A model generated the notes under the pieces. It was not told where the DNA came from. It made no database searches and saw only the letters and a program-made list of their open reading frames with translations. Shown in pieces: positions 1-21,841 of a stretch of 25,241 nt of DNA (positions within the stretch are counted from its first letter, which is position 1; each line of letters begins with the position of its first letter). The translations under genes and the position numbers were made by a program. The stretch is from a virus (taxonomy: Duplodnaviria; Heunggongvirae; Uroviricota; Caudoviricetes): positions 1 through 25,241 of the IMG/VR virus record IMGVR_UViG_2547132488_000009; one strand, 5' to 3'.

Positions 1-378
1 AATTTCAAAAGCATCAATGACAAATGGGGGCATCATATGGGTGATCAAGTCATAGTAATGGTTACCAGAATAATAAAAAAATCCATCAGGAAAGAGGATA
101 TATTAGGGCGCTTAGGCGGTGAGGAGTTCGGTATTATCATTAAAGGTAATACTCAAAAGCTCTTGCTATCAATTGCAGAGCGAATCAGAAAAAACATTGA
201 AGAGCAATGCTCGGAAAAATTATTATCGCATGGACCTGAGAAAATAACTGTCAGTATTGGTTGCTTTACTTCAAAAGAGAATAATCTCAGTCCATCTGAA
301 ATGTTAGTCAATGCCGATAAAGCGTTATATCAAGCCAAAAGAACCGGAAAAAACAAGGTGATAACTCACTCAAAATAA
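1..378 (+). CDS. Diguanylate cyclase, GGDEF domain C-terminal part (5' end lies outside the window)
   Basis: Frame is open from position 1 (NFKSINDKWGHHMGDQ...). It contains a GGEEF active-site motif preceded by an RxxD I-site (RKED) at the usual spacing, and a C-terminal ALYQAKRTGKNKV motif typical of GGDEF domains. The region is markedly AT-rich. Confidence 0.8.
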   Translation, partial: NFKSINDKWGHHMGDQVIVMVTRIIKKSIRKEDILGRLGGEEFGIIIKGNTQKLLLSIAERIRKNIEEQCSEKLLSHGPEKITVSIGCFTSKENNLSPSEMLVNADKALYQAKRTGKNKVITHSK

Positions 379-583: not shown

Positions 584-778
584 TCAGTCCAGTTTCCAGA
601 CAACCAGTGCGTCACCTTTTTGAAGGCGCTTTAAAGCACGTTTTAATCCAGGTCGGCCTGTCCTTATTCCGCTTAATTTATCTTCAAATATTTGTTCACA
701 TCCTGCACAAACAAGAGCGTTTCGTTGCAGGTCTGTATTCTGGTCATTTGTTGATACCCTTACATAGCCAATCAGCAC
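584..778 (-). pseudogene. pin: Pin/Gin/Hin-family serine DNA invertase, N-terminal fragment only (about 64 codons, truncated)
   Basis: From a GTG start at 778 (GGGAGA Shine-Dalgarno about 6 nt upstream) it reads LIGYVRVSTNDQNTDLQRNALVCAGCEQIFEDKLSG...GDALVVWKLD, the invertase catalytic N-terminus with the active-site Ser region. A stop follows directly after KLD, and none of the three minus frames of 379..583 encodes the expected RLGRS... continuation. Confidence 0.85.
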
Positions 779-832
779 GCTGAATCTCCCGTCCAAAAGC
801 ACAAATCATGCCATGCAGGCCAGAAACCGCCA

Positions 833-858
833 TTATCTAAAACCTCGGTTTACAGGAA
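833..858. promoter_or_regulatory. gix/pix-type 26-bp inversion crossover site (left)
   Basis: TTATCTAAAACC-TC-GGTTTACAGGAA: two 12-bp half-sites around a central dinucleotide, differing by one base from the Mu gixL sequence as I recall it. It is the inverted partner of the site at 3886..3911. Confidence 0.8.
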
Positions 859-1803
859 ACGGTAAATCAGGCTTCTGGCGCATTACAGAAAAACCAGAAC
901 GGCGCAGATATTCCGGGAAAAGATACCTTCACCAAAAACATTGGTGCCTGCCGCGCATATAGCGCATGGCTGAATATTGGTGGCGATAGTCAGGTCTGGA
1001 CAACTGCGCAATTTATTTCGTGGCTGGAGAGTCAGGGGGCATTTAACCATCCTTACTGGATGTGCAAAGGCTCATGGGCTTATGCAAATAATAAGGTTAT
1101 TACAGATACAGGTTGCGGAAATATTTGTCTTGCAGGTGCTGTGGTGGAAGTTATTGGCACTCGCGGCGCAATGACCATACGCGTTACTACGCCGAGCACG
1201 TCCAGCGGTGGCGGAATTACTAACGCTCAATTCACTTATATTAATCATGGTGATGCTTACGCTCCTGGCTGGCGACGAGACTACAACACGAAAAACCAGC
1301 AGCCTGCATTTGCTTTAGGGCAAACAGGACGCAGGGTCGCAAATGATAAAGCTGTTGGCTGGAACTGGAATAGCGGTGTTTATGATGCAGATATCAGTGG
1401 TGCATCGACATTAATCCTCCACTTCAATATGAATGCGGGGAGTTGCCCTGCTGTACAGTTCCGCGTGAATTACAGGAACGGCGGTATTTTTTATCGTTCA
1501 GCGCGTGATGGTTATGGCTTTGAAGCTAACTGGTCAGAGTTTTACACCACAACACGCAAACCCTCTGCGGGGGATGTTGGTGCATATACGCAGGCAGAAT
1601 GTAACTCAAGGTTTATTACAGGTATTCGCCTTGGCGGTCTGTCATCTGTTCAGACATGGAAAGGCCCCGGCTGGTCTGACAGGTCAGGTTATGTCGTTAC
1701 GGGTTCAGTTAACGGAAACCGTGCTGAATTAATTGATACAACTCAGGCAAGGCCAATTCAGTATTGCATTAATGGGACGTGGTATAACGCGGGGAGTATT
1801 TAA
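841..1803 (+). CDS. Alternative side-tail-fibre C-terminal cassette, silent in this orientation (no start codon of its own)
   Basis: The frame is open from the stop codon inside the left crossover site and reads NLGLQETVNQASGALQKN..., the same junction peptide as Stf at the right site. It ends ...RPIQYCINGTWYNAGSI, parallel to the expressed Stf end ...RPIQKYINGTWYNVVQV. Confidence 0.75.
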   Translation, partial: NLGLQETVNQASGALQKNQNGADIPGKDTFTKNIGACRAYSAWLNIGGDSQVWTTAQFISWLESQGAFNHPYWMCKGSWAYANNKVITDTGCGNICLAGAVVEVIGTRGAMTIRVTTPSTSSGGGITNAQFTYINHGDAYAPGWRRDYNTKNQQPAFALGQTGRRVANDKAVGWNWNSGVYDADISGASTLILHFNMNAGSCPAVQFRVNYRNGGIFYRSARDGYGFEANWSEFYTTTRKPSAGDVGAYTQAECNSRFITGIRLGGLSSVQTWKGPGWSDRSGYVVTGSVNGNRAELIDTTQARPIQYCINGTWYNAGSI

Positions 1804-1805
1804 CG

Positions 1806-2339
1806 ATGATGCACTTAAAAAACATTACTGCTGGCAACCCTAAAACAAAAGAGCAATACCAGCTAACAAAGCAATTTAACATCAAATGGCTTTATTCAGA
1901 TGATGGAAAAAACTGGTATGAGGAACAAAAGAATTTCCAGCCAGACACTTTGAAAATGGTCTATGACCATAACGGCGTTATTATTTGTATTGAAAAGGAT
2001 GTTTCAGCAATTAATCCAGAGGGTGCAAGCGTCGTTGAATTACCTGATATTACAGCAAATCGCCGGGCTGATATTTCGGGGAAATGGATGTTCAAAGATG
2101 GCGTAGTGATAAAGCGAACTTATACCGAGGAAGAGCAGAGGCAACAAGCGGAAAATGAAAAGCAAAGCCTGTTGCAACTTGTCAGGGATAAAACCCAGCT
2201 ATGGGACTCACAGCTACGGCTGGGCATCATTTCCGACGAGAATAAACAAAAATTAACCGAGTGGATGCTCTATGCGCAGAAAGTCGAATCTACAGACACT
2301 TCCGGCCTGCCAGTAACGTTTCCCGAACAACCAGAATGA
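1806..2339 (+). CDS. tfa: Tail fibre assembly protein Tfa, partner of the silent cassette
   Basis: 177 aa starting [40 protein letters not shown], the conserved Tfa N-terminus. It starts 2 nt after the cassette stop. Confidence 0.85.
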   Translation: MMHLKNITAGNPKTKEQYQLTKQFNIKWLYSDDGKNWYEEQKNFQPDTLKMVYDHNGVIICIEKDVSAINPEGASVVELPDITANRRADISGKWMFKDGVVIKRTYTEEEQRQQAENEKQSLLQLVRDKTQLWDSQLRLGIISDENKQKLTEWMLYAQKVESTDTSGLPVTFPEQPE

Positions 2340-2342
2340 GAG

Positions 2343-2362
2343 AAGGCCCGCTATCGGGCCTT
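2343..2362. terminator. Hairpin between the convergent tfa genes (possible bidirectional terminator)
   Basis: AAGGCCCG-CTAT-CGGGCCTT, a perfect 8-bp stem with 4-nt loop, followed on the plus strand by AATTTTTA. Confidence 0.5.
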
Positions 2363-2367
2363 AATTT

Positions 2368-2895
2368 TTACTCTGGTTTTTGTGGCCATTCAGGATTTGC
2401 CGTATCCACACGGCTGACCAGAACACTGTAGCGTTCCCATGCTTCCAGTCGTGTGCGTTCCTCGTCTGTTGCCATATTCAGCCTGACAGCGCGTTCCAGC
2501 GGTTGGATGACTGATTCAGCTTCGGAAAGCAATGCGGCCTTTTGTGATTCGGCCTGTTGTTGTTGCTCGTCTGCCGTATAAATCCGTTTAACCACAGCTC
2601 CGTCCCTAAACATCCACTTACCGGAATCATCAGCGCAGCGGTTGGCTGTAATATCTGGAACCTCAACGACGCTATAACCTTCAGGGTTAAGCGTGGAGGC
2701 ATCTTTGGTGATGGCGACAATAATATTATTTGCATCGTAAACAATCTTTATTGTGTCTGGCTGAAAGTTTTTCACTTCCTCATACCAGTTTTTTCCGTCT
2801 TCGGACCATAACCAGATAACATCAAAATTCTTTGTTAGCTGATATTGTTCTTTTGTTTTTGGATTTCCAGACTTAATATTTTTTAAATGCTGCAT
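2368..2895 (-). CDS. tfa: Tail fibre assembly protein Tfa, partner of the expressed fibre C-terminus
   Basis: 175 aa starting [40 protein letters not shown]. It is a paralogue of the plus-strand tfa with a divergent C-terminal half and overlaps the stf stop. Confidence 0.85.
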
Positions 2896-2898
2896 AAA

Positions 2899-5472
2899 TT
2901 ACACCTGTACGACGTTATACCATGTGCCATTGATGTATTTTTGTATTGGTCTGAATACTGCCGGATCATCGCCATCAACTGCACCGATAATGCCAAGCCC
3001 CGTAATTGCATGACCTGATTTCTCATACATCACGCCTTTTTGCATAGTCTGAACAACACGTGTACCAAGTCGGACATCTCTCACATAACGTGAGTCAAAA
3101 TTACCATAATTGCCGGGAATAACTTGCGCACCGCAAAGCCAGTTGCCATTGTTGTCCATGTACGCCTGACCATCGGTGCCATTGGCTGTCCTTGAGTTAT
3201 TAATCATGTAGATGCCAAATTGCTTATTCCCCAGTCCACCAATCATAAATTTGCGATCAGCGTGGTCCTGACGAAGTAATGCCTGCGCACCATCGGTGGA
3301 TACCGCATTGCGTCCCAAAATAACATTCTGGTCACGCATATGAATCCACATGCCGGTACTACTGTTAATTGCAAAACGGTTTGCAAATATATCCCCTGTA
3401 ACATCAAGACCATGCCCCATGCTTATCCGACCAGTTCTGAGATTAAGCGTAAAGGGGCGTAGTGGCCCTATATCACCATTTTCTCCCTCATTCTCTCGTG
3501 TAGGGATGATATGCAGGCATTCTTCAGAACGACGAAAAATAGCACCAAAAGATGAATTAAATATCCTCAGTGCATTGACTGTCGATATTTTTACTTCACT
3601 GCTGAAAAGGGCTTTAACAAGGACAGACAAAGCATCCCATTTAAGAGTCATCAGGTCTTTTGTTGTGGTGCTCTGGCGGCTTCTCCATTTGAAATATTCA
3701 TTGCCGTTGTCGCCTGTTTCAAACCACATGTATGAATCAGTGTCGCTGTCGGCATTATTTTTAAAACCAATCTTTGCCCAGTCAGTATTTCTAATCCAGG
3801 CAAGGATTGAGTCGTTTTCAAAAGTAAGCCCACCGGACAAGGTATCGCCATTCTTTTGCACGGCGTTCCTGGCCCTGTTTACCGTTTCCTGTAAACCGAG
3901 GTATTCGATAACGGCAGCAACGGTCGATTTCGCAAGAATATCCCGCCCGACTTTTGTCAGGGTTGCCAGGCTGGCGACATCATTCCCCGTAAAATACGGA
4001 AACCTGTCTGCCGCAGTAGCAAGCCCGGCCAGCGCCGTCAGGGTGGCATCTTTCGGTTGCTTACCCGCAAGCGCGTTAGTCATGGTGGTCGCAAAATTCG
4101 GGTCGTTTCCCAGCGCCGCCGCTAACTCGTTCAGCGTATTCAGTGCGTCAGGTGACGAATCTACAAGGGCGGCAATCGCAGCCATAACGAAAGCCGTGCT
4201 TGCGATTTGGGTATTATTAGTTCCCTGTCGCGCAGTTGGCGTTGTTGGTGTTCCGGTCAGTGCCGGGCTGTTTAATGGGGCTTTCTTGTTTGTTTCATCC
4301 ATTACCGCCTTAACCGCTTTCGATGTCGCGGCCAGTGTTTCAGACGTGCTGTTGGTATCACTACTGAGTTGTACTATCCCCTTTTTCGTCGTACTCGCAT
4401 CCTCAAGCGCCACAGCGGATGCAATATCCTCTGCCCGTTTTGCTGCCGTCCCGGCGCGCGTTGCTGCGGATTCTGCCGCACTTTTGCTCTGTGCTGCCGC
4501 CGTCGCACTGCCAGCTGCCTCTGTCGCCTTCGTGGATGCCGTCGTGGCGCTGCCTTTCGCTGCTGACGCCTGTTTAGTCGCCTCATCTTTTGAAGCAGAC
4601 GCAGATGATGCCGATGACGCCGCCGAACTGGCGGACGATGCGGCTGCCGTTTTTGAGGATTCGGCACGGGTTTCCGACGCTTTCGCATTCGTCTCAGATG
4701 TCTTCGCTGCGGAAGCAGACCTCGCAGCTGCAGTGGCCTGTTCAGTGACTTCGCCAGCCTTCGTTGTGGCTGTTGAAGCGGACGATGCAGCGCTTTCTGC
4801 CGATTTTTCAGCGGCGGTAACGCTGGCTGCCGCATTCGTTTCTGACGTTTTCGCTGCACCGGCACTGGTGGCCGCCGCGCTTTTTGAGGACTCTGCAGCA
4901 GCAGCACTTTTCGATGCCTCAGAGGCTTTTGCTGATGCCGTTCCTGCGCTGGAAGACGCTGACTGAGCCGACGACACGGCCTGTCCGGCTGACGTGCTGG
5001 CTGCGCGTGCTGAGTCTGCAGCATCAGTCGCATGGGTTGCCGCCTCACGGGCTGATGTGCTGGCATCGCCGGCTGACTTCTTCGCGGCTGCCGTGTTCTG
5101 TGCCACTGCGGACGCGTTACGCGCCACCTCTTCCACCATCACTTCAAAACGGCGCAGTGCCTCCGGCATAACATCCTCTTCCGTCATGGCACCGAGAAAA
5201 TCATTCAGCGTACCGGGTTGAGAATCTTCATACACGGTGATGGTCCCGGCATGTGACGGCGGGAATCCCTCCACCAACAGACTGACGCTGTACTGACCGT
5301 ACTCAACGTCCATACTGTAACGCCCGGCTTCATCCGGATTTTCAGAGGCCACCGTGTTCACCACAACCGTGGTGCTGTTACGTTTTGCTTTGAGCTGAAT
5401 GGTGCAGTTCTGTATCGGTTTTCCTGCACCGTCTTTCAGCACGCCTGAGATTTTTACTGCTGCCATATCCAC
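2899..5472 (-). CDS. stf: Side tail fibre protein Stf (constant N-terminal part plus the currently joined variable C-terminus)
   Basis: 857 aa. The N-terminus (MDMAAVKISGVLKDGAGKPIQNCTIQLKAKRNSTTVVVNTV...) matches lambda Stf as I recall it. It has a long Ala/Ser/Thr-rich central region and crosses the right crossover site near residue 525. The start could instead be the third codon (5466). Confidence 0.9.
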   Translation of the reverse strand: MDMAAVKISGVLKDGAGKPIQNCTIQLKAKRNSTTVVVNTVASENPDEAGRYSMDVEYGQYSVSLLVEGFPPSHAGTITVYEDSQPGTLNDFLGAMTEEDVMPEALRRFEVMVEEVARNASAVAQNTAAAKKSAGDASTSAREAATHATDAADSARAASTSAGQAVSSAQSASSSAGTASAKASEASKSAAAAESSKSAAATSAGAAKTSETNAAASVTAAEKSAESAASSASTATTKAGEVTEQATAAARSASAAKTSETNAKASETRAESSKTAAASSASSAASSASSASASKDEATKQASAAKGSATTASTKATEAAGSATAAAQSKSAAESAATRAGTAAKRAEDIASAVALEDASTTKKGIVQLSSDTNSTSETLAATSKAVKAVMDETNKKAPLNSPALTGTPTTPTARQGTNNTQIASTAFVMAAIAALVDSSPDALNTLNELAAALGNDPNFATTMTNALAGKQPKDATLTALAGLATAADRFPYFTGNDVASLATLTKVGRDILAKSTVAAVIEYLGLQETVNRARNAVQKNGDTLSGGLTFENDSILAWIRNTDWAKIGFKNNADSDTDSYMWFETGDNGNEYFKWRSRQSTTTKDLMTLKWDALSVLVKALFSSEVKISTVNALRIFNSSFGAIFRRSEECLHIIPTRENEGENGDIGPLRPFTLNLRTGRISMGHGLDVTGDIFANRFAINSSTGMWIHMRDQNVILGRNAVSTDGAQALLRQDHADRKFMIGGLGNKQFGIYMINNSRTANGTDGQAYMDNNGNWLCGAQVIPGNYGNFDSRYVRDVRLGTRVVQTMQKGVMYEKSGHAITGLGIIGAVDGDDPAVFRPIQKYINGTWYNVVQV
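3886..3911. promoter_or_regulatory. gix/pix-type 26-bp inversion crossover site (right), inside the stf coding sequence
   Basis: TTCCTGTAAACC-GA-GGTATTCGATAA. One half-site is identical to the left site in inverted orientation and the central dinucleotide is complementary, as required for inversion. It encodes the EYLGLQETVN segment of Stf. Confidence 0.8.
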
Positions 5473-9737: not shown

Positions 9738-10409
9738 TCAGCGACCAATCACCACAACCTGACCACCATCCCCTTCGTCTGCCGTGCTGATCTCCTGAGA
9801 AACCACGCGTGACCCCACGCGCATTTCACCGTACAGAACAGGCAGAACATTGCCCTGGGCAACCATGTTATCCAGTGAGGAGAAATAGGTGTTCTGTTTG
9901 CCGTTATCCGTTGTCTGTGTACGGGGAGTTCTGGCTTTCGGTGCCAGCATCTGCGCCACACCACCGAGCACCATACTGGCACCGAGAGAAAACAGGATGC
10001 CGGTCATACCACCGGCCCCAATGGCTGCCCCCCATGCTGCAAGGGTGGCCCCGGCGGTAAAGAATGATCCGGCAATGGCGGCAGCCCCCAGGACAATCTG
10101 GAATACGCCACCTGACTTGGCCCCGGCGACTCTGGGAACAATATGAATCACAGCGCCATCAGGCAGAGTCTCATGTAACTGCGCCGTTAACCCGGACGTG
10201 CTGACGTCCCGCCCGGCAATCCGTACCTGATACCAGCCGTCGCTCAGTTTCTGACGAAACGCCGGGAGCTGTGTGGCCAGTGCGCGGATGGCTTCAGCCC
10301 CCGTTTTCACACGAAGGTCGATGCGGCGGCCAAATCGTTGCAAATCCCCGTAAAGGCAGATGCGCGCCATGCCCGGTGACGCCAGAGGGAGTGTGTGCGT
10401 CGCTGCCAT
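9738..10409 (-). CDS. I: Tail tip assembly protein I
   Basis: 223 aa starting MAATHTLPLASPGMARICLYGDLQRFGRRIDL, with a Gly/Ala-rich hydrophobic segment, as in lambda gpI. Confidence 0.9.
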   Translation of the reverse strand: MAATHTLPLASPGMARICLYGDLQRFGRRIDLRVKTGAEAIRALATQLPAFRQKLSDGWYQVRIAGRDVSTSGLTAQLHETLPDGAVIHIVPRVAGAKSGGVFQIVLGAAAIAGSFFTAGATLAAWGAAIGAGGMTGILFSLGASMVLGGVAQMLAPKARTPRTQTTDNGKQNTYFSSLDNMVAQGNVLPVLYGEMRVGSRVVSQEISTADEGDGGQVVVIGR

Positions 10410-11754: not shown

Positions 11755-12083
11755 CAGTTCACCACCTGTTCAAACTCTGCGCTGAACTCAACACGCAGCA
11801 TACTGACCCGCGACGACCATTTTGCGCAGGTCACCTTTATCTGCCGGTAGCCATAAGGCGGCGTCCACAGAAAGGCTTTCCAGCCCCCGTGCTCTGCCAG
11901 AAACGACTCCAGCGCCGTAGCCTCCCAACGGGGGACAGAAAGCGTCACGCTGTACGTTTTCAGGTCGGCATTCAGCCCGGCAGGCGCTCGCTGGGAGTAA
12001 CCATCCCCAAAACGTACTTCCCTGACTAAAGGAGTCGAAGCCACCTCCATACCAGGTTTTACCTTCCAGTGAAACGTTTTCAT
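11754..12083 (-). CDS. M: Minor tail protein M
   Basis: 109 aa (MKTFHWKVKPGMEVASTPLVREVRFGDGYSQRAPAGLNADLKTYSVTLSVPRWEAT...), near-identical to lambda gpM as I recall it. Confidence 0.93.
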   Translation of the reverse strand: MKTFHWKVKPGMEVASTPLVREVRFGDGYSQRAPAGLNADLKTYSVTLSVPRWEATALESFLAEHGGWKAFLWTPPYGYRQIKVTCAKWSSRVSMLRVEFSAEFEQVVN

Positions 12084-15000
12084 CGCCCGCCTCCTGAATA
12101 CAGTCCGCCATCACGGGACTGCTGTTGCATAAAGTCCGCTGCCGCTTTTTTCCCGAGATCATAAACCACCTTCAGGGCAGCCGGACCTATCTGCCCGTTC
12201 GTGCCGTCGTTATTGATCTCGATGTTGTACTGCGGGGCAAACATCGCCATACCTGAACCACCAATATCCGCCACAACCCCCAGCTTACCGTCAGCACCAC
12301 GACGCAGTGGCAGAATGGCTTCAGGTCCAGCTTCCCCCATCACACCCGCGCCTTTTGCAAAAGCAAAAAATGTTGGACGGTTAACCACCGTGCCACTGTA
12401 GCGACTCAAATCAGCAGACTGATAAACACCGCCATCCGCATTTGGCGTCACGCTGGCAGCTGCTGCACTCCCCCAGCCAAACGCCGAACCAATCCCCTTC
12501 ACCGCCTGCATCATGGCCATTTGCGACATGATTTTTGCCAGATCAGAAAGGAGCGAGGCGGTAAAAGATTTGAAGTTCAGTTTTCCGGTGGTACAGAACG
12601 TCGCCAGTGCATTACCTGCGCTGTTAAATGCCGCTGTAAACATCTGCTCAGCCGTACCTGCCGCGTTATCCGCTTCTGCCGTAAAATTCTGAAACGCACG
12701 TATGGCACCGTTTTTCCAGTTACCCTGCACAACTTCAAGCTGTTGCCAGTAACGGCGATTCTCATTCAGTTGTCGGTTCAGGCTCTCCGTCAGCGCCTGC
12801 TCGGCCTTTCTGTAGTCATCCGTGTTATATGTCCCTTTCTGCTCACTATCCCGCCTCAACTGCTCCAGCTGTTGCTGGTATTTCTGGCGAAGACTCAGTT
12901 GTACCTGATACCGCTGCCGCAACTGTTCGCCCATACCCACCGTGGCGATATCCAGGTCATGTTGCTGACGCTGAGCGCGTTCTTCTTCAGCCAGTTGACT
13001 GGTCAGCTGAATTGTTTTTTTCTTCAGCTCGTTGAGTGCCGTCTGCTTCTGAAGCTCCTGCTGTTTTACATCCAGCAACGTCAGTGCCTGAATCAGTTCA
13101 TCTTTACGGGCCAGCACACTCTTTTCATCTGCCGTCAGTTTTTTCCCGTCCAGGTCGCTGATGCGCTGCTGCAGAGCCAGAAGCTGTTTATGCGCTTCTG
13201 TCATCCTGTCAGTGGCAATGCCTGCTGACTGTCTGGCAGCAGCAATCTGCCCTTCCACCTGTGCCTGTTGCTGACTGTACTGCAGCAATAACCGGGTGGC
13301 CTCATCATTACGGGTTTCGCGTGTTTTTTTCTTACCGGATGCCAGGGCTTTCTCGTAACGTTCATTTTCACGTTGTATCGCCGCATCCCTGACAGCCTGG
13401 TCGGCGTATTGCATGGCATTAATACGCGCAATTTCACGCTGATGTCGTGCTGCTTCCGTTTCATTCATCCGGTTCAGTGCTGCATTTTCAGCATTACGGC
13501 GTTTCTGTTGCTCCTGATAATTCCGCTCTGCCTGCTCTTTTGCATCCTGCAAATCCTTCTGGCGTTTTTTCTCCTGAAGATCGTTAAGACGCTGCTGATC
13601 GTACTCCACCTGAGTGGATGAATTCGTCCACGAAAACTTTTTCGCCCGTTGAATTTTTTCCTGTAAGGCAGCTATCTGCCCATCCAGTGAATCTTCACGA
13701 CCGATGTTCAGGGCCGCGTCCCAGAAACGGCTCCACAAATCAGACAGATATTTCAGCGTACTGCCCAGCGCATTAAGATTATTATCAATATCCGCAGTAC
13801 GCCGACCGGTTTCCTCTGCCAGTGCAGACATAGCTATCCGTGCAGCATCACTGGACCGTCCCTGTTCCCCAAGGACGCGTATCTGCTCAAGCTGAGTGGC
13901 AGTAAGAAAATGCAGCTCATTGTCCAGAGCCTTCGCGGCATTTACAGGATCATCCTTCAGCCGCTTAAACTGATTTATGGTATCGCTGACCGACTGACCA
14001 ACCGATCGCTCCATCTGTGCGGCAGCTCTCGCCACCATACCGATATCGTTTCCACGAAATGCACCACTCCCCACCACCTGAGCCAGCGCACCGGCTGCAG
14101 CATGTTGCGTGATACCATTCCCGGAAATAGCACGACTGAGCGTCCACAACTGCCCGGCAGTGACTCCGGCATAATGCCCCGTCAGCGACAACTGGCGGTT
14201 AAATTCTTCCCCCTCCTTCTGACCGTCATACCAGGCTTTACCCAGACCATAGACGGCCGCGGCAATACCGCCAATAACCCCGCCAAGCATCATGCCTTTC
14301 GGTGACATCAGTGTGTCTATCCATCCGGCACGGTTAGCCAGCGTTATCCCGGATCCCCTCAGCGCCCCTAAATTACCGCGGGCCAGTTCACCTATCAGAA
14401 CGCCTATCTCCTGGCGGGCTGCTGCACTTTTCAGACCCAGCGAATGCGTGGCTTTTCCTGCCTGCTCCATTTTGCGGATATACACTTCTGCAGCACTGCT
14501 TACCCCCAGCTGGGCTGCCTTGGCACGAAGCAACTCAGAAGATGAAAGATTCTGGCGGGTTGCCTGCTCTTTAAGCTGACGGATAAACGCCACTTTCTGT
14601 CGGGTAGCCTCTTCCTCAGCCTGTGTAAGAACACGGGTTTTCGCAGTAACCTCAGAAATCAGCGCCAGATAATCCTGCTGACCAATCCCGCCACTGTTTC
14701 TGGCCTGTCGGATCTGCTGCTGAATACGCTGTAATTCCTGCAGCCCCGCACTGGCCTGTTTCACACTGTCAATCTGACGATAAAACGCAGCAGCCGCTTT
14801 ATCCTGAGCCTCCGCCAGAGCCATGGCCTGCGCCTGTTCCTCGCGCATTTTCTGGCTCAGCGCCTCCATGCGCTGGCGGGGTTTCTCCACCTCGCGGGCC
14901 ATGCGTTCATGAGCCTGTGCGTTCTTCTCCACCGTCTGCGCATGGACGGATGCGGCTGTTGCAGCCGAAGAAGCCGCCTGCGTTGTCTGCCGGGCGGCCT

Positions 15001-15154
15001 GAGTCTGACGCTCCATAAAACGCTGCATACGGGCAGAAGACCGTTCTGCATCGCTGGCTGCACCATTCAGAAGGTTTTTGATACGGGGAATTTCATTTTT
15101 AAACTCTGCCGCATCAATCCCCAAATCAATGACCAGGTTGGCTATCTGGTCCAT
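12080..15154 (-). CDS. H: Tail length tape measure protein H
   Basis: The start is taken at the ATG at 15154 (MDQIANLVIDLGIDAAEF, GGAGGTG Shine-Dalgarno upstream). It has a long coiled-coil-rich centre and the C-terminus ...EINNDGTNGQIGPAALKVVYDLGKKAAADFMQQQSRDGGLYSGGGR, as in lambda gpH. Confidence 0.92.
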   Translation of the reverse strand: MDQIANLVIDLGIDAAEFKNEIPRIKNLLNGAASDAERSSARMQRFMERQTQAARQTTQAASSAATAASVHAQTVEKNAQAHERMAREVEKPRQRMEALSQKMREEQAQAMALAEAQDKAAAAFYRQIDSVKQASAGLQELQRIQQQIRQARNSGGIGQQDYLALISEVTAKTRVLTQAEEEATRQKVAFIRQLKEQATRQNLSSSELLRAKAAQLGVSSAAEVYIRKMEQAGKATHSLGLKSAAARQEIGVLIGELARGNLGALRGSGITLANRAGWIDTLMSPKGMMLGGVIGGIAAAVYGLGKAWYDGQKEGEEFNRQLSLTGHYAGVTAGQLWTLSRAISGNGITQHAAAGALAQVVGSGAFRGNDIGMVARAAAQMERSVGQSVSDTINQFKRLKDDPVNAAKALDNELHFLTATQLEQIRVLGEQGRSSDAARIAMSALAEETGRRTADIDNNLNALGSTLKYLSDLWSRFWDAALNIGREDSLDGQIAALQEKIQRAKKFSWTNSSTQVEYDQQRLNDLQEKKRQKDLQDAKEQAERNYQEQQKRRNAENAALNRMNETEAARHQREIARINAMQYADQAVRDAAIQRENERYEKALASGKKKTRETRNDEATRLLLQYSQQQAQVEGQIAAARQSAGIATDRMTEAHKQLLALQQRISDLDGKKLTADEKSVLARKDELIQALTLLDVKQQELQKQTALNELKKKTIQLTSQLAEEERAQRQQHDLDIATVGMGEQLRQRYQVQLSLRQKYQQQLEQLRRDSEQKGTYNTDDYRKAEQALTESLNRQLNENRRYWQQLEVVQGNWKNGAIRAFQNFTAEADNAAGTAEQMFTAAFNSAGNALATFCTTGKLNFKSFTASLLSDLAKIMSQMAMMQAVKGIGSAFGWGSAAAASVTPNADGGVYQSADLSRYSGTVVNRPTFFAFAKGAGVMGEAGPEAILPLRRGADGKLGVVADIGGSGMAMFAPQYNIEINNDGTNGQIGPAALKVVYDLGKKAAADFMQQQSRDGGLYSGGGR

Positions 15155-15488
15155 AACGCACACCTCCGGAAATACCTTCCCCAAGATGCATCAGTTCTTC
15201 GTCCGTTCGCTCCGGTATCCCGTTCTCTTCCGGTAAAAGGCTGAAATCAGCCACCGCAGCATCACTGCTACCGGACACCATTCTCACGATCAATGCCTTC
15301 AGCGAGGCAAACTGCGCATCCATCCACACATCACTGAAGCTCTGCATCCGGAAATAATCGCCCCATTCACCAAGCTCAGTGGCCGACATTTCCGACAGCA
15401 TCCGCCGCCAGTCTGCCCGCCGGAACTCCCGGGCAAGCCGCATGACAAACTGCATTTCCCGCGTCAGGACTTTTCCGGCGTCAGCACC
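15126..15488 (-). CDS. T: T segment of the tail assembly chaperone GT fusion (made by -1 frameshift from G; no independent start expected)
   Basis: The -1 frame relative to G is open from 15488 through the G stop to 15126. Its position between G and H is the conserved G/T arrangement. Confidence 0.7.
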   Translation of the reverse strand, partial: GADAGKVLTREMQFVMRLAREFRRADWRRMLSEMSATELGEWGDYFRMQSFSDVWMDAQFASLKALIVRMVSGSSDAAVADFSLLPEENGIPERTDEELMHLGEGISGGVRYGPDSQPGH

Positions 15489-15850
15489 TCATGCTCCAAA
15501 TCCCCGGCATTCTCAATGGCTCCCATACCGCTCAGCGACAAAACCATCTCTGCCCCCGCACCCAGGGCATCATACGACCATGTTGTAATAACGGATGCGT
15601 AAAGCGTCTCAACATCCTGAGACTGTTCCGCATTCCACAGTGAGCGGGAAACCAGCCAGGCATTGATATCCATCCCCATCCGCAGAAAAGCAATCTGTCG
15701 TTCAGCCTCCGGCAGTTCTCCCTCCCCGGCATCAAACTTTGCCGTTCGCTGCTGAACAAACGTCAGATATTCAATTCTCTGCAGCCCGGACAGCTCACTG
15801 AGCACCACGGACTGTTTTTCATAATTAAACGTGTCCTGTTTCAGAAACAT
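15464..15850 (-). CDS. G: Tail assembly chaperone G
   Basis: Reads MFLKQDTFNYEKQSVVLSELSGLQRIEYLTFVQQR..., matching lambda gpG (MFLKTESFEHNGVTVTLSELSALQRIEHL). The start is taken at 15850, with GGTGGAG upstream; the ATG at 15853 is an alternative. Confidence 0.88.
   Translation of the reverse strand: MFLKQDTFNYEKQSVVLSELSGLQRIEYLTFVQQRTAKFDAGEGELPEAERQIAFLRMGMDINAWLVSRSLWNAEQSQDVETLYASVITTWSYDALGAGAEMVLSLSGMGAIENAGDLEHEVLTPEKS
15470..15478 (-). promoter_or_regulatory. Candidate -1 frameshift site for G to GT
   Basis: The mRNA reads CCG-GAA-AAG-UCC-UGA in the G frame, so GGAAAAG is the only lysine-codon slippery motif in the 25-nt G/T overlap. It is not the canonical lambda G-GGA-AAG. Confidence 0.45.
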
Positions 15851-15866
15851 CATGTTCTCCACCTGC

Positions 15867-15890
15867 AAAAAAGCCCCGAATAACCGGGGC
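15867..15890 (-). terminator. Terminator-like hairpin immediately after the major tail gene V
   Basis: On the minus strand, GCCCCG-GUUAUU-CGGGGC is followed by UUUUUU, just upstream of the G ribosome-binding site. Confidence 0.55.
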
Positions 15891-15910: not shown

Positions 15911-16654
15911 TTAACCTGCTGCGCTGACAGTCACCGCAGCCACAGCCACAAAATTCCCGTCAGCGGTCATGCCCACAATGCTGACACTGCCCTGCTTCAC
16001 GCCTTTTACCGTGGCCACAAGTCCGTTCAGGGTAACCGTGGCAGTCTGTGGATCTGACGAATGCACACTGATCGCTTTGTCACTGGCTCCGTCAGGTTTT
16101 ACTGTAAAGGTCAGCGTGGTGGTTGCTCCCACTTTTACACTGGCAGACGCCGGTGATACTGTCAGCCCGGTAACGCTCACGGTTTCAGTGCCTTCCTCTG
16201 CCAGATACGGACGCCCCACACCGCTGATTTTCACAGTGCGGGTCATCACGTCTTTTGAGGCAATGGTTTTACCCAGTGAGCTCAGCCAGCCACGGAAAAC
16301 ATCAACAGTGCCGTTGGGATATTTGATACGAAACGCGCAGACTTCACCGGAGTCGAACAACTGAACCAGTTTTTTCTGCCCGCTGTCACCCGGACGCCAG
16401 GCCAGCGTCGCCGAAGTATCACCAACGGATTTCTGCCCCTGGGTTGTCGTTTTCCAGTCTGCATCTTCATCATCGAGATAAGTGTCATCTTCTGCATCAG
16501 CGGTCATTTCGCCAGGTTGCAGATCCTTCACCATCGCAAGACGCAGCCAGTCAGTGTCCGACAAAGGGTTCGCAAACGCATCGCCGTTGCCGGTATACAT
16601 CCAGAACGTCGTCCCCGCACCTTTCGTCTTTGCCAGTGGATTTGGTGTGGTCAT
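15911..16654 (-). CDS. V: Major tail protein V (with C-terminal Ig-like domain)
   Basis: The start is taken at 16654 (AGGAGG upstream). It reads MTTPNPLAKTKGAGTTFWMYTGNGDAFANPLSDTDWLRLAMVKDLQPGEMTA...YLDDEDADW...GQGQKS, matching lambda gpV. Confidence 0.92.
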   Translation of the reverse strand: MTTPNPLAKTKGAGTTFWMYTGNGDAFANPLSDTDWLRLAMVKDLQPGEMTADAEDDTYLDDEDADWKTTTQGQKSVGDTSATLAWRPGDSGQKKLVQLFDSGEVCAFRIKYPNGTVDVFRGWLSSLGKTIASKDVMTRTVKISGVGRPYLAEEGTETVSVTGLTVSPASASVKVGATTTLTFTVKPDGASDKAISVHSSDPQTATVTLNGLVATVKGVKQGSVSIVGMTADGNFVAVAAVTVSAAG

Positions 16655-18330: not shown

Positions 18331-20391
18331 TTACGCCGTACATTTCACCAGACCGCGGTGATCAACTGGCGCGACACCTGCGTCAATACGCACTTTCGTT
18401 GTCACGCCATCCACACTGAAGCCCTCCATCTGATCAATATATGGCGTATCCACACCGTTGAGATAAGCCACTTCGATGGTATCCGTACCTTTCGCCGCAG
18501 CCAGATAAAAGGTGGTCTGGCTGTTATCATCAAGACGAGGCTCTGCAATAACGGTCGCAAAATCTTTCACCGGGTTAATAATACCGGCGTTAATGTCAGC
18601 CCCCTTGACACTTGAGGAGCGAATGACCTGGTTAGCAACAGACTCCATCGCTGTCGGTACCAGTACGAACGCAGGACGAATATTCAGATGACGCTCCCCC
18701 TCTTTCTGAACGCGCATCAACTGACGGGCTTTATCCAGTGATGCCACGTCCATTGCAGCGTTCTCCAGTACGTTTGCATGTTTCGCTTTATCGAACAGGC
18801 TCACATTATCCGTGGAGATTTTCGGGTTAGATGTCAGAATGGCATAAACCAGATCGGCAATCGTGGATTTTGCCGCACGCCCCAGTTTCATCGGAACATC
18901 GGTCAGCATATTCAGATCATCGTTGATAATGGCCTGACGGGTGATGCTGAACAGTTCACCATAGGTCGCCAGTGCAATCGTGGCCTGTTTATCTCCGGTG
19001 GTGACGTATTTATATTCCGCCCCCTCACGCACCTGACGCAGAGCACTGAAGCCCCCCATACCCACACGATGGGCAATTTTAAAATCAGACAACTGACCTT
19101 TCCGGGTCCACTGTTCGTAAGTCTCAGGGGCTTCTTCCCATCCCTGCAGAATGGCTTTGTTCGCGACATCCAGCAGAATATTACCGAAATCAGACGTACT
19201 GTGCGTGAACGCTGCCCCGACCATCTGCATCGGGTTATACCCGGAAACCCCAATCCCCCTTTCTGTCAGTGACATTCGGGCATATTCACGCAGGGTCATC
19301 CCGTTATAGACGTTATCCTGTTCACGCTCAGCAAATCCGGCACGCGCCATCAGCGCCTGACGGATCCCGTCCCCCACAAAATTACCGTTTCCAGCATAAA
19401 TATGGGCCGGGGTATTTTTATTTGATGGTGAAAATTCCTTACCCATTTCGTTAAGTAATTTCTCACGGGCCTGCTCAAGCGAGCACTCCGGATCGGAAAG
19501 ACAACTGGCCTGCAATGTCTGATAGCGCCCGCCAAACATACCAAACAGTTCATTAATACCACTCACACGTGCTTTTTGCTCTGCCAGTACCTGCGCACGG
19601 ATACTGCTTTCATCTGTGGAAGGTGCATTTGTGGTAGTCGCGGTTGTGGCAACCGGAGCCGTAGTCTGATCCTGTGTCTGAGATGCAGTATTTTTGTTTT
19701 CAGGTTCACGCGTTGCACTGTTGCGTGGCGGAATAATCATATTTCGAATGGATTCCGGCATTTTTTTAAATTCCTCTGTACGTTTTGACTGAATACATGC
19801 CATTGCCTTAACTTCCGGTGTCACCTGGTCAGCAAATCCGTGTGCCAGACATTCGGCACCGGACATCCAGGTTTCATCCGCCAGCATGGCAGCAATTTCA
19901 TCGGTGGTTTTCCCGGTTTTCTGCGCATAAGCAGGCAACAGGACCGACTCAACTTTATCAAGCAGGTCGGCATAATCACGCATATCATCCGCATCGCCAC
20001 CACTCACTCCCCATGGTTTATGGATCATCATGAATGCGTTTTCCGGCATGATGACGGGATCACCCACCATTGCAATGACCGATGCCATGGATGCCGCGAC
20101 ACCATCCACATAAACAGTGATGGACGCCCCATGATTTTTCAGCGCATTAAAAATGGCGATGCCTTCAAAGACATCGCCACCCGGTGAATTGATATGGAGA
20201 TTAATGTGGGTGATATTACCCAGCGCATTCAGATCGCTGACAAACTGCTTCGCCGTAACTCCCCAGAAACCAATCTCGTCATAGATATAAATATCTGCGT
20301 CACTTTTATGACCCGCCTTCATTCTGAACCAAGAATTATTCTTCAGGCTGGCCTTCGGTTCGCCGCGAAACCACGCGTTCTGTTTCAGCAT
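18331..20391 (-). CDS. Single-ORF prohead protease (ClpP/S49-like), linker/scaffold region and major capsid protein (HK97 fold)
   Basis: The start is taken at 20391 (MLKQNAWF, GGAGGTGG upstream). The N-terminus has ClpP-like protease motifs (INSPGGDVFEGIAIFNAL...DGVAASMASVIAMVGD...HKPWG), the centre is a Thr/Ala/Pro-rich linker, and the C-terminal roughly 350 aa is capsid-like (...KVRIDAGVAPVDHRGLVK). Confidence 0.8.
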   Translation of the reverse strand: MLKQNAWFRGEPKASLKNNSWFRMKAGHKSDADIYIYDEIGFWGVTAKQFVSDLNALGNITHINLHINSPGGDVFEGIAIFNALKNHGASITVYVDGVAASMASVIAMVGDPVIMPENAFMMIHKPWGVSGGDADDMRDYADLLDKVESVLLPAYAQKTGKTTDEIAAMLADETWMSGAECLAHGFADQVTPEVKAMACIQSKRTEEFKKMPESIRNMIIPPRNSATREPENKNTASQTQDQTTAPVATTATTTNAPSTDESSIRAQVLAEQKARVSGINELFGMFGGRYQTLQASCLSDPECSLEQAREKLLNEMGKEFSPSNKNTPAHIYAGNGNFVGDGIRQALMARAGFAEREQDNVYNGMTLREYARMSLTERGIGVSGYNPMQMVGAAFTHSTSDFGNILLDVANKAILQGWEEAPETYEQWTRKGQLSDFKIAHRVGMGGFSALRQVREGAEYKYVTTGDKQATIALATYGELFSITRQAIINDDLNMLTDVPMKLGRAAKSTIADLVYAILTSNPKISTDNVSLFDKAKHANVLENAAMDVASLDKARQLMRVQKEGERHLNIRPAFVLVPTAMESVANQVIRSSSVKGADINAGIINPVKDFATVIAEPRLDDNSQTTFYLAAAKGTDTIEVAYLNGVDTPYIDQMEGFSVDGVTTKVRIDAGVAPVDHRGLVKCTA

Positions 20392-21841
20392 TACCACCTC
20401 CTTTATCGCAGGCCGGATCGGTATCAAACACCAGATCCAGCCTGCGGTTTTCATCAATTTCGGCCTTGCGCCGACGTTTAACATCATCCGGATTACGACC
20501 ACTGGCGCGCACCCAGTCTGATTCTGTTGCCGCACCACCACGAATCTGGATTTTCCAGGCTTCAGCTTCCTTGACAGGATCAATCCACGGCATGACCGGA
20601 CCAGAATATGTTGCGTTATATAATGTTTTTATATCCACATCCGACGGAATTTTCAGCAACCCCGCGGCAACCACCATATTCAGCCATGCCCGGTACACCG
20701 GACGGGTTACAGCACCAATAAAACAGTCCTGCAGGATCAGATAGCCATCGGTGGACTCAACCAGCTCCTGTCGCTGGGAACTGTAGGTACCGTTATAGTT
20801 ACGTGCTGCACTGGAAAAACTCAGACGAGTGCCCGCCGCCATGGCCCGCAACTGACCATTACGAAAAGTTTCCAGATTAGGGTTAGGCCGATCAGATTTG
20901 ACCATGCCAATATCTTCCCCCTTACGCAGATCGTCATAAATAATGCCGGGAGTGATATGCAGTTCCCGATCATTATCTTTATTCGTCACAGGTTCCTCAT
21001 AATCCTGCCCGTCTCCTTTACGAATATACAGCCCCAGTGCCGCAGCAATGCGCGCCGCTACCAGCTCAGCATCTTCATATTCCTTAAGCGCACTGATCCG
21101 CATCAGCACACCTGACAACATGGATGTGCCACGCGTCTGATGAAGGCGGCGGGTAAACTTCAGATGCACCATATTTTCAGCGGCGATCTCTTTGGTTTCG
21201 CTCTGTCGCCCGGTAACCGGATAATTTTTATAAACCAGGTATTTTTTCGGCCTGCCCCATTCATCCAGAAAAACCCCCTGATTCATTCCCGCAGACTCAT
21301 CACTGAGCATGGGCACAAAATCCGGCTCCATTGCCTCGAGCCAGAAAGGCACACCGGCAGTCCGCGCCAGCCCGGCACCTGCGCCTCTGACCATCTGGGC
21401 AAACACTTCTCCATCACGTAACCAGGTACGCAACAGCAGACGTTCGAGCATGGGGCGCGTATGCTGCCCGGTCACATCCGGACTGACAGACCATTCCGCC
21501 CACAAACGACGGATAATCATTGCCAGCTCTGTAGCCATATCACCATTTTTCAGTAATGGTTGTGGTTCAACAATGATCCCCTTTGCACCAATCACCCGCT
21601 CCTCAAGTTTGTCGAAAACACCGATTACCAGGTCATGATTGATGTCCAGAAAACGGGCCTGTTCCCGCAGAGAAACCGCCCCGTACTTACTGAGCTGGTC
21701 GGCAGAACGGTTTTCCCGTCGGGCTTTGTGTGTGCGGGTGGGTTTCACGGCCTCATAAGCGCGAATTAACGCCCTTGAGCGCAACCTCGCAGCTTTCCAG
21801 CCGGGAGAAAAAACACCAATCACATCATCAAGAATTGCCAT
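20336..21841 (-). CDS. Portal protein
   Basis: 501 aa, between the gpW-like gene and the protease-capsid gene, with a TGATG stop/start overlap with the upstream gene. Size and synteny fit a portal. Confidence 0.72.
   Translation of the reverse strand: MAILDDVIGVFSPGWKAARLRSRALIRAYEAVKPTRTHKARRENRSADQLSKYGAVSLREQARFLDINHDLVIGVFDKLEERVIGAKGIIVEPQPLLKNGDMATELAMIIRRLWAEWSVSPDVTGQHTRPMLERLLLRTWLRDGEVFAQMVRGAGAGLARTAGVPFWLEAMEPDFVPMLSDESAGMNQGVFLDEWGRPKKYLVYKNYPVTGRQSETKEIAAENMVHLKFTRRLHQTRGTSMLSGVLMRISALKEYEDAELVAARIAAALGLYIRKGDGQDYEEPVTNKDNDRELHITPGIIYDDLRKGEDIGMVKSDRPNPNLETFRNGQLRAMAAGTRLSFSSAARNYNGTYSSQRQELVESTDGYLILQDCFIGAVTRPVYRAWLNMVVAAGLLKIPSDVDIKTLYNATYSGPVMPWIDPVKEAEAWKIQIRGGAATESDWVRASGRNPDDVKRRRKAEIDENRRLDLVFDTDPACDKGGGNAETERVVSRRTEGQPEE

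What the first reader, a model, noticed from the sequence alone, without database searches (positions are those of the whole stretch)
15464..15500. G/T programmed frameshift window with a non-canonical slippery sequence
The T frame has no usable start upstream of the G stop and is open in the -1 frame for only 25 nt before the G stop, so GT must come from a -1 shift inside this short window. The only lysine-codon motif there is G-GAA-AAG (P-site Glu, A-site Lys), not the lambda-type G-GGA-AAG. The P-site tRNA would re-pair with a mismatch, which suggests a different or less efficient slip.
Basis: partly seen in the sequence, partly recalled or inferred. Interest (0 to 1): 0.45.

Follow-up and report, generated by a model that had tools for sequence, protein, structure and literature searches.

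The report
Known GGAAAAG tail-chaperone frameshift site
This is the ordinary programmed -1 ribosomal frameshift site that makes the G-T tail-assembly chaperone of a lambda-like E. coli prophage; its GGAAAAG slippery sequence looks unusual next to phage lambda's, but it is the commonest form in this gene family and is already annotated in phages N15 and phi80.

Summary
On the minus strand, gene G (15853..15464, PF06894) ends ACG CCG GAA AAG TCC TGA. The T frame (PF06223) is the -1 frame and is open for only 25 nt (15488..15464) before the G stop. It has no start codon in that stretch. The only slip-prone motif there is G_GAA_AAG (15476..15470).

Comparison with relatives supports a real -1 shift at this heptamer:
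- In 26 clusters of G homologues (70% identity threshold; 30-98% identity to the window's G), 21 carry GGAAAAG at the homologous position. Only 3 carry lambda's GGGAAAG.
- The Lys codon is AAG in 25 of 26 clusters, against 33% elsewhere in these genes.
- The base before GAA is G in 25 of 26, although the residue it encodes varies (Ala, Pro or Leu).
- The T-frame peptide is conserved from the Lys onward with fixed spacing. The ATG at 15455 is not conserved.

No conserved downstream RNA structure was found.

GGAAAAG is not new. GenBank records for N15 (AF064539) and phi80 (FN582354) already mark exactly this heptamer as the -1 slippery sequence. The idea of a "different or less efficient slip" is untested; tRNA-Glu can re-pair on GGA through a middle-position G•U pair.

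Verdict: real, ordinary, already known.

The parts
15464..15853 (-). Gene G, tail assembly chaperone (129 aa from the first ATG; stop TGA at 15466..15464)
   Evidence: PF06894 Phage_TAC_2, E=1.6e-40; translation
15470..15476 (-). Slippery heptamer G_GAA_AAG. Glu codon GAA sits in the P site and Lys codon AAG in the A site. After the -1 slip they read GGA and AAA.
   Evidence: Conserved in 21 of 26 homologue clusters with synonymous-site constraint. The identical heptamer is annotated as the slippery sequence in N15 and phi80.
15464..15488 (-). 25-nt overlap in which both the G frame and the -1 (T) frame are open. It is bounded upstream by the -1-frame stop TGA at 15491..15489.
   Evidence: Three-frame translation
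15126..15470 (-). T-frame part of GT: 114 codons from GTC at 15470..15468 to the stop at 15128..15126. Predicted GT = 128 + 114 = 242 aa.
   Evidence: PF06223 Phage_tail_T, E=3.9e-15. The T-frame peptide is conserved from the shift-site Lys onward with fixed spacing in all 60 distinct homologous sequences.
15453..15455 (-). T-frame ATG, used as the T start in GenBank and PGAP annotations. It is probably just an internal Met codon of GT.
   Evidence: Annotated as the start in mEp460, Tritos and RefSeq E. coli. The homologous codon is ATG in only 2 of 26 clusters.
15485..15490 (-). Shine-Dalgarno-like GAGGTG, 8 nt upstream of the heptamer. A possible but unproven stimulator.
   Evidence: Duplex with the 16S 3' end of -9.2 kcal/mol. 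Not conserved across homologues.
15865..15890 (-). Intrinsic terminator hairpin plus T-run between V and G
   Evidence: Annotated as a terminator in mEp460 and Ayreon, and as a putative terminator stem-loop in N15.
15911..16654 (-). Gene V, major tail tube protein (upstream neighbour)
   Evidence: PF16461 (E=1.2e-66) and Big_2
12080..15154 (-). Gene H, tape measure protein (downstream neighbour). Its ATG at 15154 overlaps the end of T by 29 nt.
   Evidence: PF06791, PF09718 and PF24622. The start is as annotated in mEp460.

Best explanation
This is the lambda-type G/GT programmed -1 ribosomal frameshift of an E. coli lambdoid prophage (mEp460/cdtI/Ayreon group).

Most ribosomes translate G to its stop and make the 129-aa chaperone gpG. 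A small fraction behave differently when GAA (Glu) is in the P site and AAG (Lys) is in the A site. They slip back one base on G_GAA_AAG. tRNA-Lys re-pairs from AAG to AAA, which is the classic E. coli A_AAG slip. tRNA-Glu re-pairs from GAA to GGA, giving G-C, G•U and A-U pairs. Translation then continues in the T frame (GTC CTG ACG ...) and yields a 242-aa GT fusion. By analogy with lambda, the G part of GT binds the tape measure and the T part recruits the tail tube protein.

Shown here:
- the frames, the heptamer and its register;
- the positional homology with lambda's shift site;
- conservation of the heptamer at the nucleotide level;
- conservation of the T-frame peptide from the Lys onward;
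- the absence of a conserved downstream RNA structure.

Inferred, not shown: that slippage actually occurs, its efficiency, and the exact tRNA events.
For: 1. Gene order V-G-T-H, with PF16461, PF06894, PF06223 and PF06791.
2. T lies in the -1 frame. The overlap is 25 nt, holds no start codon, and contains one in-register A_AAG motif.
3. The shift-site Lys aligns with lambda's. Lambda reads ...AGK-VFDGELSFALKLAREM and the window reads ...PEK-VLTREMQFVMRLAREF.
4. Across 60 distinct G-T sequences in 26 clusters (70% identity threshold; 30-98% identity to the window's G), the heptamer is GGAAAAG in 21 clusters, GGGAAAG in 3, and something else in 2.
5. The Lys codon is AAG in 25 of 26 clusters, against 33% AAG elsewhere in the same genes (binomial P about 1e-11). 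The Glu codon is always GAA, against 56% elsewhere. The preceding codon ends in G in 25 of 26 although it encodes Ala, Pro or Leu (Thr in one further sequence within a cluster).
6. The residues just upstream in G are hypervariable while [P/A/L]-E-K is fixed.
7. The heptamer-to-LAREF spacing is constant, although the G stop lies 0, 1 or 5 codons after the heptamer.
8. The same heptamer is annotated as the 'slippery sequence for -1 translational frameshift' in N15 and phi80. phi80 also carries a joined gpG-T CDS.
9. A_AAG is the most shift-prone tetramer in E. coli (PMC4066793; PMC5009743). GAA->GGA re-pairing through G•U is discussed for GGGGGAA in PMC10885494.
Against: There is no experimental measurement for this heptamer in anything I could read. 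Formally it is not X_XXY_YYZ. The systematic E. coli screen covered only canonical heptamers and found A_AAG alone barely above background without a stimulator. No conserved stimulatory structure was found. All close database records annotate T as a separate gene starting at the ATG.
Confidence: 0.86

Rival explanations
1. T is made on its own from the ATG at 15455, as annotated by GenBank submitters and PGAP. No GT fusion is made, and the heptamer is incidental.
For: An ATG exists 8 nt after the G stop. T is annotated from it in mEp460, Tritos and RefSeq E. coli.
Against: The homologous codon is ATG in only 2 of 26 clusters. No good Shine-Dalgarno sequence lies at a proper distance; there is only GGGAA directly abutting the ATG. 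The T-frame peptide is conserved upstream of this ATG, back to the heptamer Lys, with fixed spacing. The heptamer shows synonymous-site constraint that G's protein sequence cannot explain. From memory, no free gpT is made in lambda (Levin et al. 1993, cited in PMC5009743).
Confidence: 0.05
2. The shift is an A-site-only (tetranucleotide A_AAG) slip of tRNA-Lys, as at CGA_AAG in B. subtilis cdd or IS1222. P-site re-pairing of tRNA-Glu plays no part.
For: A_AAG alone can direct -1 shifting, and CGA_AAG sites are used naturally (PMC5009743). One relative has A_GAA_AAG and one has G_GCA_AAA, where P-site re-pairing is poor.
Against: The first G of the heptamer is kept in 25 of 26 clusters although the codon it ends encodes different amino acids. 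G is the third base in only about 30-45% of those codon families elsewhere. The P-site codon is restricted to GAA or GGA in 25 of 26. Without a stimulator, A_AAG alone was barely above background in E. coli, and no conserved stimulator is present here.
Confidence: 0.07
3. The site is a decayed lambda-type heptamer (GGGAAAG -> GGAAAAG point mutation) in a defective prophage, and it is no longer functional.
For: It differs from lambda's heptamer by a single G->A change. The prophage shows some decay elsewhere, such as a truncated invertase.
Against: The same heptamer is present in viable, isolated phages: mEp460, Ayreon, cdtI, N15 and phi80. It is also present in 21 of 26 divergent clusters. All 83 fetched close relatives matched have it unchanged. 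This G-T module occurs in 1848 of 5426 complete E. coli genomes.
Confidence: 0.02

Closest known systems
Phage lambda G/GT -1 programmed frameshift (G_GGA_AAG)
   Same: The protein families (PF06894, PF06223), the gene order V-G-T-H and the -1 direction are the same. The shift-site Lys is at the homologous codon and the A-site slip is the same AAG->AAA. The T domain has no start of its own.
   Different: The P-site codon is GAA (Glu) rather than GGA (Gly). Re-pairing therefore gives a G•U pair at the middle position instead of at the wobble position. The G stop lies 1 codon after the heptamer rather than 5. G identity to lambda is about 32%.
Phage N15 gp14/gp15 and phage phi80 gpG/gpG-T (GenBank AF064539, FN582354)
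   Same: The heptamer GGAAAAG is identical, in the same register and at the same homologous position. Both records explicitly annotate it as the 'slippery sequence for -1 translational frameshift'.
   Different: The G-T proteins are only about 36-39% identical to the window's. The upstream codon is GCG (Ala) rather than CCG (Pro). The G stop lies 5 codons downstream.
Salmonella phage Gifsy-1 STM2596/STM2595
   Same: This is the closest annotated relative outside E. coli, at about 60% GT identity. Its G ends ACG CCG GAA AAG TCC TGA, identical in the last six codons. T is annotated as 'part of ... gpG by translational frameshifting'.
   Different: No slip site is marked in that record.
Non-canonical A_AAG sites: B. 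subtilis cdd A_CGA_AAG and IS1222 G_CGA_AAG
   Same: These are -1 shifts driven by tRNA-Lys AAG->AAA, with a P-site codon that does not fit X_XXY (PMC5009743).
   Different: At those sites the P-site tRNA cannot re-pair well. Here GAA->GGA keeps three pairs (one of them G•U), and the first G is under selection.
Actinobacteriophage tail-chaperone site GGGGGAA (the 'fivetwo' motif in PRFect)
   Same: The same tRNA-Glu GAA->GGA re-pairing through G•U is invoked, also in a tail assembly chaperone frameshift (PMC10885494).
   Different: In that motif the Glu codon is the second codon of the site, and there is no A_AAG. The hosts and protein families are different.

Membership tests
Lambda-type G/GT tail assembly chaperone with programmed -1 frameshift | The upstream ORF is a gpG-family chaperone | tested here: met
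   PF06894, E=1.6e-40, covering 1-116 of 126 model positions
Lambda-type G/GT tail assembly chaperone with programmed -1 frameshift | The downstream ORF is a gpT domain in the -1 frame, overlaps the end of G, and has no conserved start of its own | tested here: met
   PF06223, E=3.9e-15. -1 frame and 25-nt overlap. The ATG is conserved in only 2 of 26 clusters, and the T-frame peptide is conserved from the Lys onward.
Lambda-type G/GT tail assembly chaperone with programmed -1 frameshift | Located between the major tail tube gene and the tape measure gene | tested here: met
   V at 15911..16654 (PF16461) and H at 12080..15154 (PF06791/PF09718)
Lambda-type G/GT tail assembly chaperone with programmed -1 frameshift | A conserved slippery sequence, in register, inside the overlap | tested here: met
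   G_GAA_AAG at 15476..15470. Present in 21 of 26 clusters. AAG in 25 of 26 against a 33% background.
Lambda-type G/GT tail assembly chaperone with programmed -1 frameshift | The GT fusion protein is actually produced at a low fixed ratio and is needed for tail assembly | not testable with these tools
   This needs a reporter assay, a western blot or mass spectrometry, or genetics
Canonical X_XXY_YYZ tandem-slippage heptamer | Positions 1-3 are identical and positions 4-6 are identical | tested here: not met
   Positions 1-3 are G, G, A; positions 4-6 are A, A, A. The site behaves like a heptamer only if a middle-position G•U is allowed for tRNA-Glu on GGA.
A_AAG (Z_ZZN) tetranucleotide -1 shift sites of E. 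coli | The A-site codon AAG is preceded by A, allowing cognate re-pairing of tRNA-Lys on AAA | tested here: met
   GA[A AAG]. The rule comes from PMC4066793.
Stimulated -1 PRF signals (dnaX / IS911 / IS3 type) | A conserved downstream hairpin or pseudoknot, and/or a conserved upstream SD-like element | tested here: not met
   The consensus fold of 26 representatives is -1.28 kcal/mol with no covarying pair. The local hairpin in the window has z=-1.9 and includes the heptamer itself. The SD-like GAGGTG 8 nt upstream is present in the window but not conserved.

The most novel reading that the evidence does not exclude
G_GAA_AAG, not lambda's textbook G_GGA_AAG, is the dominant and perhaps ancestral shift site of the lambda-family G/GT chaperones. 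It depends on a middle-position G•U re-pairing of tRNA-Glu in the P site. Systematic E. coli heptamer screens excluded this class of near-cognate heptamer. If it sets a frameshift level or a stimulator dependence measurably different from lambda's, it would extend the rules for bacterial -1 slippery sequences.
Probability: 0.3. Interest if true: 0.3.

Novelty: already known. Interest (0 to 1): 0.12.

Why it matters
The main value is for annotation. This G-T module occurs in about a third of complete E. coli genomes (1848 of 5426). PGAP and most phage records still annotate T as a free-standing protein starting at a non-conserved ATG, rather than as the C-terminal part of a GT frameshift product.

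There is also a modest point about mechanism. A near-cognate heptamer (G_GAA_AAG) is the majority solution in this family and is under clear nucleotide-level selection. The systematic E. coli screen read here (PMC4066793) tested only canonical X_XXZ_ZZN heptamers and Z_ZZN tetramers, and PRFect (PMC10885494) treats G:U re-pairing only as a possible future refinement of its motifs. Nothing here is surprising to a phage or recoding specialist.

Tried and rejected
- A 36-sequence alignment of very diverse G proteins was too divergent for the search for related loci. An 11-sequence alignment worked.
- Full-text searches for 'GGAAAAG'/'G_GAA_AAG' plus frameshift, and for 'GAA AAG' plus slippery, returned no phage paper. 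A search for N15/HK97/gpG/slippery returned only an unrelated TP901-1 paper.
- Xu, Hendrix & Duda 2004 (Mol Cell) is not held. I therefore could not check whether that paper lists GGAAAAG for N15. The GenBank features stand in for it.
- The PRFect supplement held as text has no 'twofour' or 'GGAAAA' entry.
- Downstream stimulatory structure: the window's own MFE hairpin (-45.5 kcal/mol, z=-1.9) pairs the heptamer itself with a downstream segment. It has no counterpart in relatives and was rejected as a conserved stimulator.
- The upstream SD-like GAGGTG is real in the window but not conserved. It is kept only as a possible local modulator.
- The GGGAAAT just after the G stop (15459..15453) resembles lambda's heptamer. 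It lies beyond the G stop and out of register, and was rejected as a coincidence of the T-frame codons CGG GAA ATG.
- Transcriptional slippage was rejected from general knowledge: a run of only four A is far too short.
- About 13 'genome' hits in unrelated taxa are identical to lambda. They were treated as lambda DNA contamination and counted once.

Full report
**What the window is.** The region is the late (structural) operon of a lambdoid E. coli prophage, encoded on the minus strand. An 801-nt query spanning G-T is 97-99% identical to the isolated phages mEp460, Ayreon, Tritos, cdtI, phi458 and others. It is at least 95% identical to a locus in 1848 of 5426 complete E. coli genomes. Pfam gives the following assignments:
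- V (15911..16654): lambda tail tube plus Big_2.
- G (15853..15464): PF06894, E=1.6e-40.
- T-frame ORF (15455..15126): PF06223, E=3.9e-15.
- H (15154..12080): lambda-type tape measure.

**Checking the observation.** The G frame ends GAG GTG CTG ACG CCG GAA AAG TCC TGA, with the stop at 15466..15464. The -1 frame carries a TGA at 15491..15489 and then reads GGT GCT GAC GCC GGA AAA GTC CTG ACG CGG GAA ATG. The two frames are therefore open together for 25 nt (15488..15464), and that stretch contains no ATG, GTG or TTG. The only in-register motif with a slippery Lys codon is G_GAA_AAG, at 15476..15470. The heptamer by itself is not rare: 7 copies in the window against 3.7 expected. The evidence has to come from its position and its conservation.

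**Homology with lambda's shift site.** Lambda reads ...TCT GCG GGA AAG TGT TCG ACG GTG AGC TGA. Its GT junction peptide is ...AGK-VFDGELSFALKLAREM. A shift on G_GAA_AAG in the window gives ...PEK-VLTREMQFVMRLAREF. The Lys is at exactly the homologous position, eight residues before the conserved Phe and fourteen before LARE[FM]. The window's heptamer differs from lambda's by one base, G->A at position 3.

**Comparative test.** I collected G homologues in three ways:
- 120 close to moderately distant proteins.
- 79 representatives of 50%-identity clusters from 1.8 billion proteins.
- 78 genomic loci from one-genome-per-species bacteria, plus phage records.

At the protein level, the residues before the C-terminus of G are hypervariable, yet the proteins almost always end in [P/A/L]-E-K followed by 0-6 residues. 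Among 49 full-length 50%-cluster representatives, 36 have Glu-Lys at the shift position. One more has Glu-Lys slightly further upstream. Four have Gly-Lys, the lambda type.

At the DNA level there are 60 distinct G-T sequences, which fall into 26 clusters at a 70% G-identity threshold. GGAAAAG occurs in 21 clusters and GGGAAAG in 3. GGCAAAA and AGAAAAG occur in one each. The hosts include Escherichia, Shigella, Salmonella, Enterobacter, Citrobacter, Kluyvera, Kosakonia, Phytobacter, Buttiauxella, Rahnella, Erwinia, Proteus, Providencia, Morganella and Xenorhabdus.

**Nucleotide-level selection.** Four observations apply at the shift site:
- The Lys codon is AAG in 25 of 26 clusters, while AAG makes up only 33% of Lys codons elsewhere in the same genes (binomial P about 1e-11).
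- The Glu codon is always GAA, against 56% elsewhere.
- The codon before it is GCG, CCG or CTG, and ACG in one further sequence within a cluster. The amino acid varies but the third base is G in 25 of 26. G ends only about 29-45% of those codon families elsewhere.
- The base after the heptamer is always a pyrimidine.

This is the signature expected if all seven bases are needed for tandem re-pairing (GAA->GGA and AAG->AAA). It is not expected from constraint on gpG's own sequence. The clusters share ancestry, so the P value is only indicative. Even so, synonymous sites elsewhere are randomised at these divergences.

**T is not an independent gene.** The G stop lies 0, 1 or 5 codons after the heptamer in different lineages, yet the T-frame distance from the heptamer to LAREF never changes. 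The T-frame residues between the heptamer and the window's ATG are conserved in kind (K-[V/A]-x-x-x-[E/A]-x-x-F). The window's ATG (15455) corresponds to Leu, Arg, His, Lys or Val codons in most relatives, and is ATG in only 2 of 26 clusters. No adequately spaced Shine-Dalgarno sequence precedes it. GenBank and PGAP nevertheless annotate T from this ATG, or in Ayreon from a still later start.

**Stimulators.** The window's own fold puts the heptamer into a hairpin (-45.5 kcal/mol, z=-1.9). An RNAalifold consensus over the 26 representatives is essentially unstructured (-1.28 kcal/mol, no covariation). An SD-like GAGGTG lies 8 nt upstream in the window (15490..15485; -9.2 kcal/mol with the 16S 3' end). 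It falls inside the 6-17 nt range searched by Sharma et al. (PMC4066793). It is absent from many relatives, including lambda, N15 and phi80. It may modulate the level locally but is not a defining part of the signal.

**Mechanism.** A_AAG is the most shift-prone tetramer in E. coli, because the single tRNA-Lys pairs better with AAA (PMC4066793; PMC5009743). Alone and without a stimulator it is barely above background. This fits the observed selection on the P-site half of the heptamer. From established pairing rules, tRNA-Glu (anticodon 3'-CUU*-5') shifted from GAA to GGA keeps G-C and A-U pairs and forms a G•U pair in the middle. The same re-pairing is discussed for the actinophage chaperone site GGGGGAA (PMC10885494). 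Natural sites with even poorer P-site re-pairing are documented, such as CGA_AAG in cdd and IS1222. I therefore favour tandem near-cognate slippage giving a low, fixed GT:G ratio. For lambda that ratio is about 1:30 and matters for assembly (PMC5009743).

**Is it new?** No. The N15 GenBank record (AF064539) carries a misc_feature at 10027..10033 labelled 'slippery sequence for -1 translational frameshift', and its sequence is GGAAAAG. The phi80 record (FN582354) marks 10194..10200, also GGAAAAG, and gives a joined gpG-T CDS. The closest annotated relative outside E. coli is Gifsy-1, whose G ends with the identical ACG CCG GAA AAG TCC TGA. Its T is described as made 'by translational frameshifting'. 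I found no open-access paper that discusses or measures this heptamer, and the key 2004 survey is not held. Whether its efficiency has been measured is unknown to me.

**Verdict.** The core interpretation, a -1 shift on G_GAA_AAG making GT, is strongly supported by comparative evidence. The suggestion that the site is unusual or weaker is not supported, because this is the family's majority heptamer and has long been annotated. This is an ordinary, already-known feature. The practical lesson is that T should be annotated as part of GT.

Noticed in passing
window 584-5472 (inverted repeats 829-866 and 3878-3915): This looks like an invertible tail-fibre segment. Two 38-nt inverted repeats, 92% complementary and with a gix/cix-like core (TTCCTGTAAACCGAGG), flank two opposed sets of tail-fibre C-terminus plus Caudo_TAP assembly genes (1060-1803+/1806-2339+ facing 2899-5472-/2368-2895-). 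The adjacent ORF 584-802(-) holds only the N-terminal 72 aa of a serine invertase (PF00239). The switch is therefore probably frozen.
   Followed up: partly
window 37-378 (+): This is the C-terminal part of a GGDEF diguanylate cyclase (PF00990, model positions 54-161). It is probably the host flank, or a host gene disrupted at the prophage end.
   Followed up: no
window 18331-20583 (-): A single 750-aa ORF combines a ClpP-like protease domain (residues 109-255) with a major capsid domain (455-747). Its 5' end overlaps the end of the portal gene (20336-21841). The true start was not determined.
   Followed up: no
window 15865-15890 (-): A strong intrinsic terminator hairpin (GCCCCGG-TTAT-TCGGGGC plus a T-run) sits between the abundant tail tube gene V and G. 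It is annotated as a terminator in mEp460 and Ayreon, and as a putative terminator stem-loop in N15. It may lower G/T/H transcription relative to V.
   Followed up: partly
L139-L151 (genome-contig hits in Kitasatospora, Oceanobacillus, Neobacillus, Shewanella, Pseudomonas, Leeuwenhoekiella and others): About 13 assemblies of unrelated bacteria carry a G-T region identical to phage lambda, often on low-coverage contigs. Several of these contigs are about 48 kb long. This is almost certainly lambda DNA contamination in the assemblies.
   Followed up: no
L093, L096, L097, L099, L105, L107 (Proteus, Providencia, Morganella prophages): In these relatives the G stop codon (TAG or TAA) directly follows the heptamer (GAA AAG TAG). 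The slip therefore competes with termination at the very next codon. L094 (Ewingella) has G_GCA_AAA followed by TAG instead.
   Followed up: no
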